Shown here in pieces: positions 26,906-60,522 of a DNA stretch of 64,000 nucleotides (positions are counted from its first letter, which is position 1; the number at the start of each line of letters is the position of its first letter). The notes below the pieces were generated by a model. It had not been told where the DNA came from and ran no database searches. It saw nothing but the letters and a program-made list of their open reading frames with translations. Source of the stretch: an uncultured Chloroflexia bacterium (GTDB lineage Bacteria; Chloroflexota; Limnocylindria; Limnocylindrales; CSP1-4). The stretch is taken from NCBI GenBank assembly GCA_963712745.1, contig CAVQJC010000005.1, positions 192,001-256,000 of the forward strand. The letters run 5' to 3'. The translations under genes were made by a program, and so were the position numbers.

Positions 26906-27063
26906 GCGAGGACGGTCTCCGGTGTTGGTCGTATCGCGGGATGTGCGTCGCGGGCGGCGCTCACTGGGGGGCGTCCCATCGCTCCGGCGCGCCGCCGCAG
27001 TCTAGCGTGTCACGGCCGAGTCCCGCGTGCCTGCCCGCCCGGCTGGCTGCGGGCGTGGGGCCT

Positions 27064-27250
27064 GGCCGTCGGCGATCGTGGCCGCTCGGCCGTCGGGTTC
27101 ACAGCTGCTCGGCCGTCGGGGTTCGTGGCCGGGCCGGCGGCGATCGTGCCTGGTCAGCCGTCGGTGGCGGCCGCTCGGCCGTCGGGGTTCGTGCCGGGCC
27201 AGCCGTCGGGGTTCGTGCCTGGTCAGCCGTCGGGGTTCGCGGCCGCTCGG
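27064..27250. repeat. Degenerate ~24-bp tandem array
   Basis: gccgtcggggttcgtg core repeated. Confidence 0.8.
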
Positions 27251-27290
27251 CTGCAGCGGCTGTACCCGGCTCGGCCTGGAGGGTTCAGGT

Positions 27291-27467
27291 TCTTCGCGAT
27301 CATTGCACGACTCGGCCGCGATCTCGGTGTTTCGGGGCCGTCCAGGCACTCAGTGTCGCCACCGGCACGCGCTGTCGAGCGTGGCGTGGCGGCCTGGAGG
27401 GCGTCGCTCCGGCCGAGCAGGCGCCCGAGTAGGGCGTGGCGCCCGCTTCGTTCAATGATTGCGAAGA
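27291..27467. mobile_element. Solo ~177-bp inverted-repeat element A (MITE/REPIN-like)
   Basis: TCTTCGCGATCATTGCACGA ... TCGTTCAATGATTGCGAAGA (18/20 complementary). Confidence 0.7.
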
Positions 27468-27478
27468 AGCTGCCACGG

Positions 27479-27573
27479 GGGGCGCTCAGGGGAGACGTGA
27501 TGGCCGCTTCGTGGTCACGTGGGGCGCTCAGGGGAGACGTGATGGCCACTCCGTGGGCGCGTAGGGCGCTCAG
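27479..27573. repeat. 42-bp tandem repeat x2.3
   Basis: ggggcgctcaggggagacgtgatggcc... twice plus a partial copy. Confidence 0.88.
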
Positions 27574-55643: not shown

Positions 55644-57527
55644 TCACTCCCACTCGATGGTGGCCGGCGGCTTGCTGCTGATGTCGTAGACCACGCGGTT
55701 CACGCCGGGCACTTCGTTGACGATGCGCGAGCTGATCTTGCCCAGCACGTCGTAGGGCAGCTTGGCCCAGTCGGCCGTCATGCCGTCCTCGCTGGTGACC
55801 GCGCGGATGGCCACGACGTTGGCGTAGGTGCGGCCGTCGCCCATGACGCCGACGCTGCGCACGGGCGTGAGGATGGCGAACGACTGCCACACGTTTCGAT
55901 ACAGGCCCGCGGCCTTGATCTCGTCGATGACGATCCAGTCGGCCTCACGCAGCGTGTCGAGCCGCTCACGGGTGACCTCGCCGATGATGCGGATGGCCAG
56001 GCCGGGCCCCGGGAACGGCTGGCGCATGACCATCTGCTCGGGCAGGTCGAGGGCCATACCCACCTTGCGCACCTCGTCCTTGAAGAGGTAGCGCAGTGGC
56101 TCGATGAGCTGGAAGCGCAGGTCGGACGGCAGGCCACCGACGTTGTGGTGGGTCTTGATCTTCTGGGCCGCCTTGGTCTCGGGCGCGGTCGACTCGATGA
56201 CGTCGGGATAGAGCGTGCCCTGGGTCAGGAAATCGATGCGCCCGATCTTGGCCGCTTCCTCCTCGAAGACGCGGATGAACTCGTCGCCGATGATGCGCCG
56301 CTTCTTCTCCGGGTCCTCCACGCCGGCGAGCCGCTTGAGGAAGCGGTCGCGGGCATCGACCATCACCAGGTTCATGCCTAGGTTGGCCTCGAACGTCTCG
56401 CGCAGGAGCTCCGACTCGCGCTTGCGCATGAGCCCGTGGTCGACGTAGATGCAGGTGAGACGGTCGCCGACCGCGCGGTGGACGAGGGCCGCTGCGACCG
56501 ACGAGTCGACACCGCCGGACAGGGCACAGATGACCTTGCCGTCGGAGCCCGTGGCCGCGGCCTGCTTATCGACGCGCTCTCGGATGCGCTCGACCGTGGA
56601 CTCGATGAAGTTGGCCGAGGTCCAGTTCGACTCGGCCCCGGCGATGCCGTGGACGAAGTTCGCGAGCACGTCCTTGCCGCGTGGCGTGTGTACGACCTCG
56701 GGGTGGAACTGGATGCCGTAGAGACCGCGGTCGGGGTCGGCCAGGCCAGCGTAGGGCGTGGAGTCGGTCTGGGCCGTGGAGTGGAAGCCGCTCGGGAGCC
56801 GGGTGATGGAATCGCCGTGGCTCATCCATACGGGCTGCTCGGAGCCGAGGTCACCGAGTAGCCGGTCGTCCTCCGCGGTGATCGAGATCGAGGCCGGGCC
56901 GTACTCACGGTGGTCGGATGGGAGCACGTCGCCGCCGAGCTCGATGGCCATCAGCTGTGCGCCGTAGCAGATGCCGAGCACGGGGATGCGGCCGGACCAG
57001 ATGGCCGGGTCGGGTCGGGGCGCGCCCTCGTCGTACACGGACATGGGGCCGCCACTGAGGATGATGCCTTTGATCTCACGGCGCCTGAGCTCCTCGAGCG
57101 GGGTGTCGAAGGGCAGCAGCTCGGCATAGACGTCGAGCTCTCGCACGCGGCGGGCGATGAGCTGGGAGAACTGGCTGCCGAAGTCGAGTACGACCACGCT
57201 GTCAGGCGGCTCCGGTGGGCGGCTGATGGTGGGACGGTCGTCCTCCGGTGGGCGTTCCGGGGCGGGTGCGTCGAGAGCCACCTCGAGGTAGGCCTCCACC
57301 TCCGCGTCATCTGGCGCCAGCACTCGGTGGCCGGCATTGGCGACCTCGCCGTGGACGGTCTTGCCACGCTCCTTCGGTGGCTTGCCCTGGTTGGGCACAT
57401 CGCCGCCCTCGTGCTGGTGGGGCGCCGCGTCGCCGCCCTCGTGCTGGTGGGGCGCCGCGTCGCCGCCCTCGTGCTGGTGGGGCGCCGCGTCGCCCTGCTT
57501 CACGTTCTCGTCAGCCGCGTCTGTCAA
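55644..57527 (-). CDS. guaA: GMP synthase (glutamine-hydrolysing) with an N-terminal extension
   Basis: [44 protein letters not shown]; start uncertain. Confidence 0.95.
57401..57498. repeat. 30-bp tandem repeat x3 ([10 protein letters not shown])
   Basis: cgccgccctcgtgctggtggggcgccgcgt. Confidence 0.93.
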
Positions 57528-57609
57528 TCGGATCCCCTCGCCTGCTGCCCGCCGCTCCCGTGACTCCCGTCACCCCCAGTGAGAGCGAGTCTATCGGAGG
57601 CGGACCGCA

Positions 57610-57928
57610 GCCTCGTGCACGTCCCTCAGCAGGTGGTGGGCGCGACCTCAGCAGGGGGAGCGCGACCGTCAGCAACAGTGCGGCCTTCGGGGTCACCGTT
57701 GCGGCCTCGTGCGCGTCCCTCAGCAGGTGGTGGGCGCGACCGTCAGCAACCCCCAGGACGACTCTTCGCGATGATCGAACGAGTGCGGCCTTCGGGGTCA
57801 CCGTTGCGGCCTCGTGCGTGTCCCTCAGCAGGTGGTGGGCGCGACCGTCAGCAACCCCCAGGACGACTCTTCGCGATGATCGAACGAGTGCGGCCTTCGG
57901 GGTCACCGTTACGGCCTCGTGCGTGTCC
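57610..57928. repeat. 105-bp tandem repeat x~2.4 plus partial copies, including the left end of element B
   Basis: agtgcggccttcgggg at 57677, 57782 and 57887. Confidence 0.9.
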
Positions 57929-58043
57929 CAGAGGCTACAGATCCCAGACGCCGAGCGTGACGGCCATCCCCGCACAGGGCGCTGAGTGGTCCTCCCCGAC
58001 ACATCGTCCAGATCGGGCCGAGATCTGTCGATGACTGCGAAGA
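57868..58043. mobile_element. ~176-bp inverted-repeat element B
   Basis: TCTTCGCGATGATCGAACGA ... TCTGTCGATGACTGCGAAGA. Confidence 0.65.
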
Positions 58044-58083
58044 AGACGCCCGAAGCCGTCGACCGCCGTGACTCAGGCCGTCG

Positions 58084-58932
58084 CTAACGTATCTGGACCC
58101 GACGAGCGGCCTCGCTGTATCCCTGGATGCGCGGCCGGGCCGAGGTCAACGCCCGGTCGAGGCTGGCCGTGGGTGGCTGACGGCCGGTGGCGAAGGGGTC
58201 GAGCAGGACGAAGGAGCTGCTGCGGCCCGCGCTGGGTGGCTCCCCGCGAAGCCAAGCAGTGAGCCGATCGTCCGGGTCCGGGCAGAGCGTGCGGAACGTG
58301 GCCTTCCGAAGTCGAAGGCTGTGCAGTATCTCGGCCGACCACAGGCCGACCATCACGTGTGTCTCCGACACGAACCGGCGGATCTCGAGCTCGCGAGCGA
58401 GGGTGCGAGCCAGGTACTGCCGCTTGGCGTTGTAGCTGCCGGCCGCCTGCTGCAGGTCCGGGAAACGCGTGCGATTCTCGATGTGGAGTAGCGCCGCTGG
58501 GTCGAGCGTCCAAGCCAGGACATCGGCGCGGCCCGCGAACTGGTAGTGCTGGTAGGGGTGGTCTACGTCGACTACGTAGCCGAGTGCGCTGAGCCAGCGC
58601 GTCTCGATCTCGCCCATGGCAGCGTGGACGATGTCTGTCGACTCCCGCGTCGGTCGCCTCCGACGGCTGGCGGTGGACATCTCCAACGTCAGACCGAGCG
58701 CGACCGCGATCCGAGCGTACGTCTCCAGCGAAGCCACGCGCCCGGCCTCGACACCCGACACCGTTCCAACCGACACACGCGAGCGCCGAGCGACTTCGGT
58801 CAACGTCCACCCGCGACGCTGACGCTCCCTCTGCAAAGCAACGCCGGCGTCCACAGCCAGCCGGTCCCTGAGGGCGACTGCGGCTGGGAATGGCGGCGAG
58901 GCCGCGGAACGAGGTGACATCTTCGCAGTCAT
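58084..58932 (-). CDS. XRE-family HTH fused to a putative PD-(D/E)xK nuclease-like domain
   Basis: RQRRGWTLTEVARRSRVSVGTVSGVEAG; GRADVLAW..LLHIENRT; ATG at 58932 or 58920. Confidence 0.75.
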   Translation of the reverse strand: MTAKMSPRSAASPPFPAAVALRDRLAVDAGVALQRERQRRGWTLTEVARRSRVSVGTVSGVEAGRVASLETYARIAVALGLTLEMSTASRRRRPTRESTDIVHAAMGEIETRWLSALGYVVDVDHPYQHYQFAGRADVLAWTLDPAALLHIENRTRFPDLQQAAGSYNAKRQYLARTLARELEIRRFVSETHVMVGLWSAEILHSLRLRKATFRTLCPDPDDRLTAWLRGEPPSAGRSSSFVLLDPFATGRQPPTASLDRALTSARPRIQGYSEAARRVQIR

Positions 58933-59107
58933 TGAACGACGAGGGCCTTCACTGCCACTTACCGCGCGTCGGGGGACCGTGCGACACAAGCATGGGACGG
59001 ATCTTGAGCGTGGGCGGGCGAATGAAACGTCGACGGCCGTCAGCCTCGTACCGAAGTGGCAGCCGAAGACGGCCGAGGAGCTCGGTGTTCTTCGATCACT
59101 GCGAAGA
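58920..59107. mobile_element. ~188-bp inverted-repeat element C
   Basis: TCTTCGCAGTCATTGAACGA ... TTCTTCGATCACTGCGAAGA; inner inverted repeat ctgccactt/aagtggcag. Confidence 0.7.
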
Positions 59108-59119
59108 ATCCGCCGGATG

Positions 59120-59525
59120 TGGGGCCGGGCGGGACGTCGAGCGGCATCGCGTCGTCGTGGTGGGGCCGGGCGGGACGTCGAGCGGTCTCCTGTTCAACGA
59201 CCGAGTGGAACGCCAGGAAGTGCGGCCGGGCCGCGCCACCGGGCCACCGGGCCGGACGTCGAGCGGCCCCGCGGCGTCGTGGTGGGGCCGGGCGGGACGT
59301 CGAGCGGTCCCCTGTTCAACGACCGAGTGGAACGCCAGGAAGTGCGGCCGGGCCGCGCCACCGGGCCACCGGGCCGCGCCACCAGGCCACCGGACGGACT
59401 TCGAGCGGCGTCGTGCCGCCTGCGGCCGGGCCGCGCCACCGGGCCACCGGGCGGGACGTCGAGCGGCATCGCGGCGTCGTGGTGCGGCCGGGCCGCGCCT
59501 CCGGGCCATGCCGCCACCGCCGGGC
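59120..59525. repeat. Compound array with 122-bp period
   Basis: tgttcaacgaccgagtggaacgccaggaag at 59191 and 59313; ggacgtcgagcgg sub-units. Confidence 0.88.
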
Positions 59526-59613
59526 CGAGCGCGTGGCCGGCGCGGCCGAGATTGAGGCCGAGGCTAAGGCCGGGCCCGATGGCGGCGCCACCGCTTAGGC
59601 CGACGGTGGCATC

Positions 59614-60522
59614 GTGGACATCGAGGCACTGGCACAGGATCCGCTCCTCTTCTACATCGTTGCCACCGTCCTGGCGGTGGTGCTGACGGCGGGCCTGCTC
59701 GCCGTCCTGCGCATCCCCGGCGCATGGGTGCCGCTGCGCACGTGGTTCGTGATCCTGCCGATGGCGCTGGGTGCGATGTGGCTGGGCGGGGGCGCGTGGG
59801 GCGTCTTCGTGACCGTCATCTCGATGGTCGGCTTCAAGGAGTTCGCCCGCGTCACCGGGCTCTACCGACAGACGCTCTTCGTGCTCGTGGTCTACGGCGC
59901 CATCGTGGCCGAGAACGTCTTCGCCTATCTCGGCCGCTACGACTTCTTCATGGCCACGCCGACCTGGGCCATCCTCTCGCTCGCGCTCGTGCCCATCGTG
60001 CTGCGGCGCACCGATGGGATGCTGCAGTGGTTCGCCCTGGCCATCGTCGGCGTCGTCTTCTACGGCTACTTCCTGGCCCACCTGACGTACCTCTACCGCT
60101 CACCCGACGGGCTGGGGTATCTGCTCTTCGTGGTGCTCATGACGCAGCTCAACGACGCGCTGCAGTACCTCTACGGCAAGGCCGTAGGGCGCCACCACTG
60201 GACGCCCATCAGCCCCAACAAGACCGTCGAGGGCTCGCTGCTGGCCGGTCTCACCATCGTCATCCTGACGTTCCTGCAGGCGCCCATCGCGTTCCCCCAG
60301 GTGCCCCCGGCCGGAGTCCTCGCGGCGGGCCTCATCATCACCGTCGGTGGCCAGGTCGGCGACCTCACGATGGCCAACGTCAAGCGCAACGCCGGCGTCA
60401 AGGACTTCGGCACCATCCTGCCCGGCCACGGCGGACTCACCGACCGGCTCAACTCGCTGATGGTCACAGCACCCGCCTTCGCCCACATCATGGGCTACTT
60501 CTACGGGGGTTTACCCACGTGA
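59614..60522 (+). CDS. Phosphatidate cytidylyltransferase, YnbB-like
   Basis: TQLNDALQY, ISPNKTVEG, KRNAGVKDFGTILPGHGGLTDR. Confidence 0.9.
   Translation: MDIEALAQDPLLFYIVATVLAVVLTAGLLAVLRIPGAWVPLRTWFVILPMALGAMWLGGGAWGVFVTVISMVGFKEFARVTGLYRQTLFVLVVYGAIVAENVFAYLGRYDFFMATPTWAILSLALVPIVLRRTDGMLQWFALAIVGVVFYGYFLAHLTYLYRSPDGLGYLLFVVLMTQLNDALQYLYGKAVGRHHWTPISPNKTVEGSLLAGLTIVILTFLQAPIAFPQVPPAGVLAAGLIITVGGQVGDLTMANVKRNAGVKDFGTILPGHGGLTDRLNSLMVTAPAFAHIMGYFYGGLPT

What the first reader, a model, noticed from the sequence alone, without database searches (positions are those of the whole stretch)
57763..59107. HTH-nuclease gene bracketed by two copies of a ~180-bp inverted-repeat element: candidate new REP/REPIN-like system
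Seen: seven copies of a ~20-bp motif TCTTCGCRRTSATYGAACGA at 27291+, 27467-, 57763+, 57868+, 58043-, 58920+ and 59107-. They pair into three elements of 177, 176 and 188 bp. B (57868-58043) and C (58920-59107) flank the XRE-HTH/PD-(D/E)xK-like gene and share internal blocks (gaacga..ggccttc..cac..ttac..gagcgtg). No transposase is present, and no target-site duplication was evident. Established: REP/REPIN elements flank their cognate RAYT (HUH) nuclease gene and also occur as dispersed solo copies. Inference: this is an analogous system driven by an HTH plus restriction-fold nuclease.
Basis: partly seen in the sequence, partly recalled or inferred. Interest (0 to 1): 0.85.

Follow-up and report, generated by a model that had tools for sequence, protein, structure and literature searches.

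The report
Nuclease gene with dispersed cognate inverted-repeat elements
An uncultured soil bacterium carries about a dozen 170-190-base DNA elements whose ends copy the control region of one DNA-binding nuclease gene, a gene-plus-repeat partnership that recurs with different end sequences in related genomes and resembles known bacterial repeat systems but uses a different kind of enzyme.

Summary
The 20-base motif occurs 7 times in the window (0 expected) and forms 13 intergenic inverted pairs of 166-243 bp in this 4.2-Mb genome.

Element C is the upstream region of the gene at 58084-58920(-), and its end abuts the ATG. The gene encodes an XRE helix-turn-helix domain plus a restriction-endonuclease-like (PD-(D/E)xK) domain.

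- **Family-wide link:** in 38 of 63 homologous loci, the 20 bases before the ATG have an inverted copy 160-290 bp upstream (controls 0 and 4 of 63).
- **Phasing:** these spacings are quantised at about 10.5 bp.
- **No RNA signal:** mismatches between the arms show no strand bias.
- **Genome-specific ends:** each genome's dispersed copies carry that genome's own gene-linked end sequence (14 and 21 hits in two other genomes, 0 in cross-tests).
- **Presence/absence:** one G000 site is empty in at least 15 related species.
- **Inheritance:** the gene is single-copy and syntenic in G000.

The REPIN/RAYT analogy therefore holds for the association, but the enzyme, the repeat architecture and the copy number differ. 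Mobilisation by the nuclease is inferred, not shown. Element interiors are diverged to near saturation, and no target duplication is seen. I found no description of this in two literature searches.

The parts
27291..27467 (.). Element A: orphan 177-bp element with 20-bp inverted ends and a central GAGCGTGG at 27377-27384. It lies between two conserved genes.
   Evidence: The spacer between the two conserved genes is 600 bp here, against 12-71 bp in at least 15 species of the genus.
27059..27251 (.). Tandem repeat array (periods 24 and 68 bp) on the left flank of element A.
   Evidence: converted from contig coordinates; sequence.
27474..27573 (.). Tandem repeat array (period 42 bp) on the right flank of element A.
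57610..57929 (.). 105-bp-period tandem array (3.2 copies) that spans and duplicates the left end of element B. It holds the solo end copy at 57763-57782.
57868..58043 (.). Element B: orphan 176-bp element between the HTH-nuclease gene and guaA, with a central GAGCGTGA at 57953-57960.
   Evidence: No end motif follows the gene at the homologous G172 locus, and the guaA match in G171 leaves no room for an element.
58084..58920 (-). Gene for a 278-aa protein. Residues about 26-81 form an XRE-family helix-turn-helix domain. Residues about 95-278 form a restriction-endonuclease-like (PD-(D/E)xK) domain with invariant D120, D133, E148 and K166, and R150 (K in one homologue).
58920..59107 (.). Element C: 188-bp gene-linked element, which is the upstream control region of the gene. 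The proximal end abuts the ATG, the distal end is at 59088-59107, and the central GAGCGTGG is at 59006-59013.
59125..59508 (.). Tandem repeat arrays (periods 122, 21 and 57 bp) on the outer flank of element C.

Best explanation
The elements are the cognate DNA sites of the neighbouring protein.

**The basic unit** is the gene's own upstream module. It consists of two roughly 20-bp ends in inverted orientation. Each end is itself an imperfect 5+5 dyad of the kind an HTH dimer binds. The ends lie 160-205 bp apart, on the same face of the helix, with a small conserved box in the middle. One end abuts the start codon.

**Inferred mechanism:** HTH dimers bind both ends and pair through the protein, looping the DNA. 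At the gene this would give autoregulation.

**Dispersal:** in some genomes, G000 among them, the module exists in about a dozen further intergenic copies that lack the gene.

**My preferred reading** is a REPIN/RAYT-like partnership. The single-copy, vertically inherited HTH-nuclease acts on the looped pair of ends by cutting or nicking at the sharp outer boundaries. This spreads or re-templates the ends, keeps them uniform within a genome, and leaves tandem duplications in the flanks as repair scars.

**Shown:** the association, the co-variation, the phasing, the fold and the presence/absence at one site. **Inferred:** binding, looping, cleavage and mobilisation.
For: 1. **Real dispersed family.** G000 has 13 intergenic pairs of 166-243 bp. 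The conservation boundary at the outer ends is sharp.
2. **Gene-linked copy is the rule.**
   - In 38 of 63 homologous loci, the 20 nt before the ATG has an inverted copy of at least 14/20 within 450 bp upstream. Controls gave 0 of 63 (reversed) and 4 of 63 (complemented).
   - RNAalifold on 25 elements finds only the terminal helix, and 13 of its 14 pairs carry compensatory changes.
3. **Genome-specific ends.** Counts are hits of each genome's own gene-proximal 20-mer at 3 mismatches or fewer.
   - G181: 14 hits, 0 in the control.
   - G183: 21 hits, 0 in the control.
   - G182: 3 hits.
   - Each pattern in the other three genomes: 0, 0, 0; 0, 0, 0; 0, 0, 1.
   - Within the genus, the outer heptamer of the gene-linked and A-site copies changes together: G000 TCTTCGC, G171 TCCTCAC, G014 TCCACAC.
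4. **Double-stranded DNA and protein, not RNA.**
   - Spacings cluster at 162/173/184/194/205 bp. The best period is 10.5 bp with R 0.71, and no null trial out of 2000 reached it.
   - The phasing recurs within G000, G183 and G181 separately: R 0.87-0.95, P 0.0003 or less.
   - Non-Watson-Crick arm positions split 52 G.U against 53 A.C out of 920 cells.
5. **Each end looks like an operator.** It has an internal dyad centred 8 nt before the ATG: 58% complementary against a median of 24% over 230 centres.
6. **Protein.**
   - Pfam HTH_3, E 6.3e-10.
   - The C-terminal model has pLDDT 91.8.
   - Its best structural matches are 2okf_B (Z 8.2, rmsd 3.5, 117 aligned), 2ph7_B (7.8, 2.7, 106), 9wuf_A (7.7, 3.5, 114) and NucS 2vld_B (6.8, 3.5, 99), followed by many restriction, CdiA-CT and Can2 nucleases.
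   - D120, D133, E148 and K166 are invariant. R150 is K in one homologue.
   - Homodimer prediction supports binding but does not show it. Score 0.63; best of 3 controls 0.00. That mark was reached by 20 of 30 proteins solved as pairs of one chain and 1 of 23 solved as single chains. Runs agree in at least 46% of contacts, and pLDDT is at least 81. The interface is residues 8-86, the HTH domain. It may be recalled from solved XRE dimers.
7. **Gene is single-copy and syntenic.** It lies in guaA-gene-cdsA order in G000 and G171, and next to guaA in G172 and G161. Copies look fragmented or interrupted in G005, G011, G014 and G175.
8. **Presence/absence.** The A site has a 600-bp spacer in G000 against 12-71 bp in at least 15 species. 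It is also occupied in G171 and G014.
9. **Copies cluster near the gene.** 9 of 38 loci have an extra copy within the fetched flanks, against 1 of 38 for the control. 6 of the 13 G183 elements lie on one 245-kb contig, which also holds the gene.
10. **Flanking tandem repeats.** They cover 34% of non-coding flank bases against 2.5% of intergenic DNA. 8 of 13 elements have them against 1.8 expected, and 0 of 2000 resamples reached 8. 9 of 13 G183 elements also have them.
11. **Orphans are true orphans.** No gene remnant lies within 1 kb of the 11 G000 elements other than B and C, which adjoin the gene itself (best tblastn E 0.13, best profile E 0.76).
Against: - **No sign of recent copying.** Only the ends (37 bp or less in G000, 48 bp or less in G183) match between copies. 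Interiors barely exceed shuffled controls: mean local score 20.5 against 18.7, with 6-9% of pairs above the 99th percentile of the null. The one full-length similarity in G181 turned out to belong to a further gene copy.
- **No target-site duplication**.
- **No excision joint** across B or C in contigs of four public runs, which are low-depth and cannot show rare forms.
- **Recognition helix does not track the ends.** Once overall protein divergence is removed, the correlation is r 0.04, p 0.17; with outer bases only, r 0.08, p 0.04.
- **Orientation fits a regulatory role.** By the central box, 9 of 11 orientable G000 elements face the 5' end of a co-directional gene.
- **Nuclease activity, binding and looping are untested.**
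- **Relatedness.** Loci and genomes are related by descent, so counts across them overstate independence.
- **The A site may be ancestral.** G000, G171 and G014 are not visibly closer to one another than to species with empty sites (identities 81-84%). The A-site pattern could mean ancestral presence with repeated loss rather than insertion.
Confidence: 0.5

Rival explanations
1. Purely regulatory or architectural looping sites. The protein is an autorepressor that binds two phased operators. The dispersed modules are further targets (promoter cassettes or chromosome-organising sites) maintained by selection. The nuclease-fold domain serves oligomerisation or sensing, and plays no part in spreading the modules.
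For: - One operator abuts the start codon, and the spacing is helically phased, as in classical looped repressors.
- Ends and the central box are conserved while interiors drift, as expected for old sites under selection.
- 9 of 11 orientable G000 elements face the 5' end of a co-directional gene, 5 of 6 in tandem gene contexts.
- B faces guaA.
- No recent copies and no target duplication.
Against: - Four of the 13 G000 elements lie between convergent genes, where no promoter is needed.
- Site sets differ almost completely between species of one genus.
- End sequences differ between genomes yet are uniform within each. This is hard to achieve for 20 or more independent operators by point mutation.
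- The putative catalytic residues are invariant in 44 of 44 aligned homologues.
- Tandem duplications pile up at the element borders.
Confidence: 0.27
2. Site-specific excision or inversion switch. The protein pairs the two ends and cuts out or flips the 160-205-bp cassette, switching promoters on or off. It would be a programmed rearrangement rather than transposition.
For: - Two inverted sites with phased spacing, and a nuclease fold.
- The best structural match of the C-terminal domain carries the title 'FdxN element excision controlling factor protein' (2okf_B, Z 8.2, rmsd 3.5, 117 aligned).
- The gene-linked cassette would separate the promoter from the ATG when removed.
Against: - No joint skipping or inverting B or C in contigs of four runs, although those are low-depth.
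- Z 8.2 is in the range that the tool calls a common arrangement.
- A PD-(D/E)xK nuclease alone has no known rejoining activity (recalled, not tested).
Confidence: 0.08
3. An ordinary MITE family moved by an unrelated transposase encoded elsewhere or now lost. On this view its presence next to the HTH gene is incidental.
For: - Terminal inverted repeats, small size, intergenic location and presence/absence between species.
- The genome is 84.6% complete, so a transposase could be unassembled.
Against: - The element sits directly before the ATG of the gene in 38 of 63 loci across many genomes, each with a different end sequence.
- Each genome's orphan copies match its own gene-linked copy.
- No target duplication.
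- No longer unit bounded by the same ends apart from B-gene-C.
Confidence: 0.06
4. A structured RNA: a 5' leader or small RNA whose closing helix is formed by the two ends.
For: - The ends are complementary with many compensatory changes.
- One end abuts the start codon, so a helix could mask translation initiation.
Against: - No Rfam match in the window.
- No conserved internal structure.
- G.U and A.C mismatches are equal, 52 against 53, so neither strand is favoured.
- A length quantised at about 10.5 bp is a property of duplex DNA, not RNA.
- Orphan copies lie in every orientation, including between convergent genes.
Confidence: 0.03

Closest known systems
REPIN / RAYT systems of Pseudomonas and enterobacteria
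   Same: - A single-copy, mostly vertically inherited nuclease-type gene is flanked by the same short repeat that is dispersed through the genome as inverted pairs.
- Repeat sequences are genome-specific.
- The arms are conserved and the spacer is less so.

These features of REPIN/RAYT are taken from the abstract openings listed (10.1101/2022.05.22.493013, PMC3337134). I saw the search listing only.
   Different: - The protein is XRE-HTH plus a PD-(D/E)xK fold, not an HUH tyrosine transposase.
- The ends are about 20 bp and lie 160-205 bp apart, with helical phasing on duplex DNA. They are not hairpin-forming REPs a few tens of bases apart.
- Copy number is about a dozen, not hundreds.
- The standard arrangement is one element abutting the start codon.
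MITEs with a cognate DDE transposase, and Correia elements of Neisseria (recalled, not looked up here)
   Same: Small non-coding elements with terminal inverted repeats in intergenic DNA. A central conserved box recalls the host-factor site of Correia elements, and the elements may carry outward promoter parts.
   Different: - No target-site duplication.
- No autonomous parent with a DDE transposase found.
- Interiors are unrelated between copies.
- The ends co-vary with a resident, syntenic gene.
Looped two-operator repressors, and two-site (type IIE/IIF) restriction endonucleases (recalled)
   Same: Two sites must lie on the same helical face, so spacing is quantised at about 10.5 bp. The protein has a dimeric HTH and a restriction-endonuclease fold.
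   Different: - The site pair is copied around the genome and differs between genomes.
- The genes adjacent to it in the window are guaA and a cdsA-like gene, not a methyltransferase.
- Cleavage is untested.
XisH-type 'excision controlling factor' proteins (PDB 2okf, 2inb)
   Same: 2okf_B is the best structural match of the C-terminal domain (Z 8.2, rmsd 3.5, 117 aligned). 2inb appears in Foldseek at E 0.13.
   Different: - 10% sequence identity.
- XisH proteins have no HTH domain in these entries (target lengths 128-129).
- No serine recombinase partner was examined here.

Membership tests
REPIN/RAYT | The cognate gene encodes an HUH (Y1) REP-associated tyrosine transposase. | tested here: not met
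   Pfam, NCBIfam and PADLOC give only HTH matches. The C-terminal fold matches restriction-endonuclease-like proteins.
REPIN/RAYT | The repeat unit is a short imperfect palindrome (REP). A REPIN is two REPs in inverted orientation with a short spacer. | tested here: inconclusive
   Each end has a weak internal dyad (58% against a 24% median), and the ends are inverted. However, the spacer is 120-165 bp and is phased on duplex DNA.
REPIN/RAYT | A single-copy, vertically inherited gene flanked by the repeat that is dispersed in the same genome. | tested here: met
   One copy in G000. Synteny with guaA and cdsA across species. Elements B and C flank it. The genome-specific match holds in G000, G181 and G183.
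MITE / IS-derived element | Terminal inverted repeats. | tested here: met
   Ends of about 20 bp with 0-5 mismatches to the motif, and a sharp outer boundary.
MITE / IS-derived element | Target-site duplication. | tested here: not met
   None seen in the 26 G000 ends aligned or in the 13 G183 elements printed with flanks.
MITE / IS-derived element | An autonomous parent with the same ends that encodes a known transposase. | tested here: inconclusive
   The only longer unit bounded by the ends is B-gene-C. Transposase family models were not run, and the genome is 84.6% complete.
XRE-family HTH DNA-binding proteins | An HTH_3 / HTH_31 domain. | tested here: met
   PF01381 E 6.3e-10 and PF13560 E 1.4e-9. 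Structural matches: C.AhdI 1y7y_B, Z 11.0, rmsd 1.6, 63 aligned; HipB 9u9g_A, Z 10.9, rmsd 2.6, 75 aligned.
PD-(D/E)xK nuclease superfamily | A restriction-endonuclease-like alpha/beta core. | tested here: met
   Model pLDDT 91.8. 35 chains score Z of 5 or more, and the listed ones are almost all nucleases of this fold, with a top Z of 8.2. This is moderate support only, because the tool warns that Z under 8 can be a common arrangement.
PD-(D/E)xK nuclease superfamily | The catalytic D ... (D/E)xK signature. | tested here: inconclusive
   D133 and E148 are invariant. Position 150 is R in most sequences and K in the G018 homologue. K166 is invariant. The assignment of roles is by eye, and activity was not testable.
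Rfam RNA families | A match to a curated covariance model. | tested here: not met
   0 matches at gathering scores in the whole window.

The most novel reading that the evidence does not exclude
This is a new class of bacterial mobile or self-homogenising DNA. A helix-turn-helix restriction-fold nuclease synapses two phased inverted ends on duplex DNA. By cutting at their outer borders it copies, or re-templates by repair from other copies, a roughly 185-bp module derived from its own promoter region. The result is a vertically inherited gene-plus-repeat partnership, analogous to REPIN/RAYT but mechanistically unrelated, that is widespread in Candidatus Limnocylindria (Chloroflexota).
Probability: 0.35. 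Interest if true: 0.9.

Novelty: new variant of a known kind. Interest (0 to 1): 0.8.

Why it matters
REPIN/RAYT is the one class of persistent, vertically inherited intragenomic replicator named in the abstract opening of 10.1101/2022.05.22.493013 (search listing). This system would be a second, independent case, built on a different enzyme fold and on duplex-DNA looping. That would show the lifestyle is not tied to HUH transposases.

It also offers a clean natural data set. It spans hundreds of loci, each with its own end sequence and quantised spacing. Such data can be used to study how a DNA-binding specificity and its sites co-evolve, and how a gene's own operator region can become a dispersed element.

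If the nuclease does cut only looped site pairs, it could be of practical interest as a programmable two-site enzyme.

The protein family is large (852 database hits) and is annotated only as 'XRE family transcriptional regulator'.

Tried and rejected
- **Small ORF starting at the ATG inside the end motif.** In-frame reading runs only 5-91 codons at 11 of 13 elements. The 342-codon frame at C11:218010 has GC3 of only 0.57, and the remaining one is the HTH gene itself. Rejected.
- **RNA element.** No Rfam hit, only the terminal helix in RNAalifold, and no strand bias.
- **Sigma-70 consensus scan of 57500-59700.** 0 promoter-like sites. Uninformative.
- **PDB sequence search with the family profile.** Only HTH matches.
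- **NCBIfam and PADLOC.** Only HTH matches.
- **ESM Atlas.** Closed.
- **Foldseek on both models.** Nothing at E of 0.001 or better.
- **Empty-site tests at three further G000 elements.** Flanking genes are conserved, but the spacers hold other variable DNA in the five relatives searched, so no clean empty site was found.
- **G171-type end pattern at 3 mismatches across the genus.** Too noisy to count.
- **Covariance model R1 of the element.** It found 10 of the 13 G000 elements and nothing else in G000. On the 80 family loci it missed several of its own training sequences, giving only 15 matches. It is therefore unfit for counting.
- **Searches of the genus and of gene-less genomes with R1.** These failed on machine errors. 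The test 'do genomes without the gene lack elements?' was therefore not done.
- **Public runs.** Contigs of X1, X2, X3 and X5 hold near-identical fragments that bridge the element borders. No joint skips B or C. One 71-bp skip lies inside the 105-bp tandem array in X1. Contigs cannot show rare variants.
- **Partial Mantel test of recognition helix against end sequence.** Not significant.
- **An 80%-identical element pair in G181.** It proved to be a fourth gene copy with its own element, not an orphan copy.
- **Gene remnants next to orphan elements.** None found.
- **Literature.** Searches listed no paper describing such a system. I saw only the listings.
Full report
**Observation**

The window is G000:C5:192001-256000 of a 4.2-Mb, 68% G+C, 20-contig genome.

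The same search gave 0.00 matches in 100 shuffles. The matches form three elements: A at 27291-27467, B at 57868-58043 and C at 58920-59107. The seventh copy, at 57763, belongs to a 105-bp tandem array that duplicates the left end of B.

Genome-wide there are 22 hits at 2 mismatches or fewer and 13 inverted pairs of 166, 176, 177, 178, 186, 187, 187, 187, 188, 188, 189, 219 and 243 bp. All 13 lie between ORFs with coding-like GC3.

**Anatomy of the elements**
- Conservation starts sharply at the outer T of each end and fades after 20-25 bp.
- All-against-all BLAST finds only the ends, 37 bp or less.
- Interior local-alignment scores barely exceed shuffles: mean 20.5 against 18.7.
- A central octamer, GAGCGTGG or a one-mismatch variant, lies about 84 bp from an end in 11 of 13 elements.
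- No target-site duplication is visible.
- No Rfam family matches anywhere in the window.

**The gene**

The ORF at 58084-58989(-) starts in homologues at MSPR..., which is the ATG at 58920-58918. The protein is therefore 278 aa, and the end of element C abuts the start codon. In other words, element C is the gene's upstream region.
- Pfam finds only HTH_3 and HTH_31. NCBIfam and PADLOC find only HTH matches.
- More than 852 database proteins are homologous. Those that carry a name are called XRE-family or helix-turn-helix regulators, or hypothetical proteins.
- Invariant residues include D120, P122, Q124, H125, G130, D133, E148, R150 and K166. One homologue has K at position 150.
- AlphaFold models are confident: pLDDT 89.4 for the full length and 91.8 for the C-terminal domain alone.

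The C-terminal domain matches restriction-endonuclease-like proteins:

| Chain | Z | rmsd | aligned | Description |
|---|---|---|---|---|
| 2okf_B | 8.2 | 3.5 | 117 | 'FdxN element excision controlling factor protein' |
| 2ph7_B | 7.8 | 2.7 | 106 | AF2093 |
| 9wuf_A | 7.7 | 3.5 | 114 | Upx |
| 2vld_B | 6.8 | 3.5 | 99 | repair endonuclease (NucS) |
| 1y88_A | 6.6 | 4.1 | 108 | AF1548 |

Below these come CdiA-CT toxins, R.BspD6I, EcoT38I, Can2, Card1 and FokI. Foldseek is weak, with a best E of 0.016 against the R2 endonuclease region. That these proteins share the PD-(D/E)xK fold is my recollection, and the Z values are moderate.

A homodimer prediction supports binding but does not show it:
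- Score 0.63; best of 3 controls 0.00.
- That mark was reached by 20 of 30 proteins solved as pairs of one chain, and by 1 of 23 solved as single chains.
- Runs agree in at least 46% of contacts, and pLDDT is at least 81.
- The interface is residues 8-86, the HTH domain.
- The pass may reflect solved XRE dimers.

**The gene and the element belong together**

From 80 loci of 161 relatives in one-genome-per-species contigs, I could place the start codon and had enough upstream DNA in 63. In 38 of those 63, the 20 nt before the ATG has an inverted copy of at least 14/20 within 450 bp upstream. Controls gave 0 of 63 for the reversed sequence and 4 of 63 for the complemented one.

The end sequences differ widely between loci but stay complementary within each locus. 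RNAalifold on 25 elements finds only the terminal helix, and 13 of its 14 pairs carry compensatory changes. The inner GTTCA(A/C) at about -16 to -11 is conserved across the family, while the outer 9-12 nt vary.

**Duplex DNA, not RNA**

Among 46 loci with at least 13/20 matches, the non-Watson-Crick positions split 52 G.U against 53 A.C out of 920 cells. Neither strand is favoured.

The end-to-ATG distances cluster at 161-162, 171-175, 182-187, 193-195, 204-206, 218-225 and 235-246 bp. The best period is 10.5 bp with R 0.71, and none of 2000 uniform or jittered nulls reached it, taking the maximum over 151 periods. The same quantisation appears separately in the element sets of three genomes:

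| Genome | Elements | Best period (bp) | R | P |
|---|---|---|---|---|
| G000 | 13 | 10.9 | 0.87 | 0.0003 |
| G183 | 13 | 11.1 | 0.92 | 0 of 3000 trials |
| G181 | 11 | 10.8 | 0.95 | 0 of 3000 trials |

Relatedness of loci inflates these figures. A hidden internal repeat of about 11 bp could mimic phasing, although none was seen.

The proximal end also has an internal dyad: 5-bp arms with a 5-bp gap, centred 8 nt before the ATG. It is 58% complementary against a median of 24% over 230 centres. That is what an HTH dimer operator looks like.

**Genome-specific dispersal**

The table gives hits, at 3 mismatches or fewer, of each genome's own gene-proximal 20-mer.

| Pattern from | Hits in own genome | Control (pattern read backwards) | Hits in the three other genomes |
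|---|---|---|---|
| G181 | 14 | 0 | 0, 0, 0 |
| G183 | 21 | 0 | 0, 0, 0 |
| G182 | 3 | 0 | not cross-tested |
| G000 | not run as the exact 20-mer; the degenerate motif gives 36 | – | 0, 0, 1 |

All 13 G183 sites fetched, and all 11 G181 sites, are inverted pairs. G183 lengths are 171-204 bp and G181 lengths are 151-173 bp. In G183 only the ends are shared between elements.

Within the genus, the G000-type motif occurs mainly in three genomes: G000 with 22 hits, G172 with 7 and G005 with 5. The paired pattern was found in 0 of 116 genomes of other genera of the family.

At the A site and at the gene, the outer heptamer changes together:
- G000: TCTTCGC
- G171: TCCTCAC or TCTCAC
- G014: T(T)CCACAC

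.

**Inheritance and turnover**
- G000 has one copy of the gene.
- The order guaA-gene-cdsA is shared with G171. The gene lies next to guaA in G172 and G161.
- Protein identity for this gene is 54-67%, against 85-92% for guaA.
- Copies look fragmented or interrupted in G005, G011, G014 and G175.
- G161 and G175 have only about 75 bp upstream and no distal end.

At the A site, the two flanking genes are 12-71 bp apart in at least 15 species, but 600 bp apart in G000. The site is also occupied in G171 (about 495 bp) and G014 (about 430 bp), in each case by an element with that genome's own ends. G000 is about equally distant from occupied and empty species (81-84% identity). I therefore cannot tell repeated insertion from ancestral presence with loss.

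Three further sites gave no clean empty site.

Extra copies lie close to the gene in 9 of 38 loci, against 1 of 38 for the control. Six of the 13 G183 elements lie on one 245-kb contig, which also holds the gene.

**Flanking tandem repeats**

Arrays of period 15 or more cover 34% of the non-coding 300-bp flanks, against 2.5% of intergenic DNA. They occur at 8 of 13 elements against 1.8 expected, and 0 of 2000 resamples reached 8. In G183, 9 of 13 elements have arrays nearby. Several arrays span an element border and duplicate an end:
- the left end of B, in the window;
- the left end of the C2 element, in G000;
- the G172 gene-linked element.

**What argues against active mobility**
- No pair of orphan elements shares its interior.
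- The one 80%-identical pair in G181 extends into a further gene copy.
- No target duplication is seen.
- Contigs of four public runs hold the same arrangement and show no joint across B or C. Contigs cannot show rare forms.
- The recognition helix does not track the ends once overall divergence is removed: r 0.04, p 0.17.
- Orphans have no gene remnants within 1 kb, so they are not relics of deleted gene copies.

**Interpretation**

The association between gene and element is, in my judgement, secure. I put the probability that the protein recognises these ends at about 0.85.

How the orphan copies arise, and how their ends stay uniform, is open. I favour nuclease-dependent copying or repair-templated homogenisation, on four grounds:
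- the ends are uniform within genomes but different between them;
- the catalytic-type residues are invariant;
- the outer boundaries are sharp;
- tandem duplications pile up at the borders.

A purely regulatory looping system is the main rival.

The literature searches (listings only) turned up the REPIN/RAYT papers but nothing describing an HTH restriction-fold nuclease with such elements. Searching this scan's earlier findings by the protein sequence returned nothing.

Noticed in passing
window 57400-57494 (- strand gene 55644-57527): The GMP synthase (guaA) ORF has a perfect 30-bp tandem repeat (3.2 copies) at its 5' end. It encodes [10 protein letters not shown] three times in an unusually long N-terminal extension.
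   Followed up: no
upstream of the HTH-nuclease gene in many loci, e.g. window about 58945-58965 and L084-L135 (alignment A3): Two conserved boxes, (A)TAAG(C/T)GG and T(A/G)AG, lie about 10-11 nt apart and 25-40 nt before the ATG. They are found in gene-linked elements across the family and could be promoter elements or a second protein's site.
   Followed up: partly
G000:C13:35-247 and G000:C2:178409-178788: The C2 element has its left end duplicated by a 195-bp-period tandem array. The same end type recurs twice at the start of the short contig C13, so the assembly probably breaks inside this repeat.
   Followed up: no
window 57645-57717: One contig of run X1 skips 71 bp inside the 105-bp tandem array left of element B. 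This hints at copy-number variation of the array between populations.
   Followed up: no
L081 and L084: Close homologues of the gene (55% and 51% identity) lie on contigs of MAGs labelled Rokuibacteriota and Patescibacteria. This points to either mis-binning or transfer outside Chloroflexota.
   Followed up: no
G181 (L091, L132, L142, L180), G016, G024, G180: Some genomes carry three to seven copies or fragments of the gene, each with its own upstream element, whereas G000 has one.
   Followed up: partly
window 26995-27015 and orthologous places (L059-L062): A conserved GCAGTCTAGCGTGTCA box lies next to the A site in all species. In species with an empty site, a short GTGCGCAC-type palindrome sits at or near the point where G000 diverges. 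This may be a target feature.
   Followed up: no
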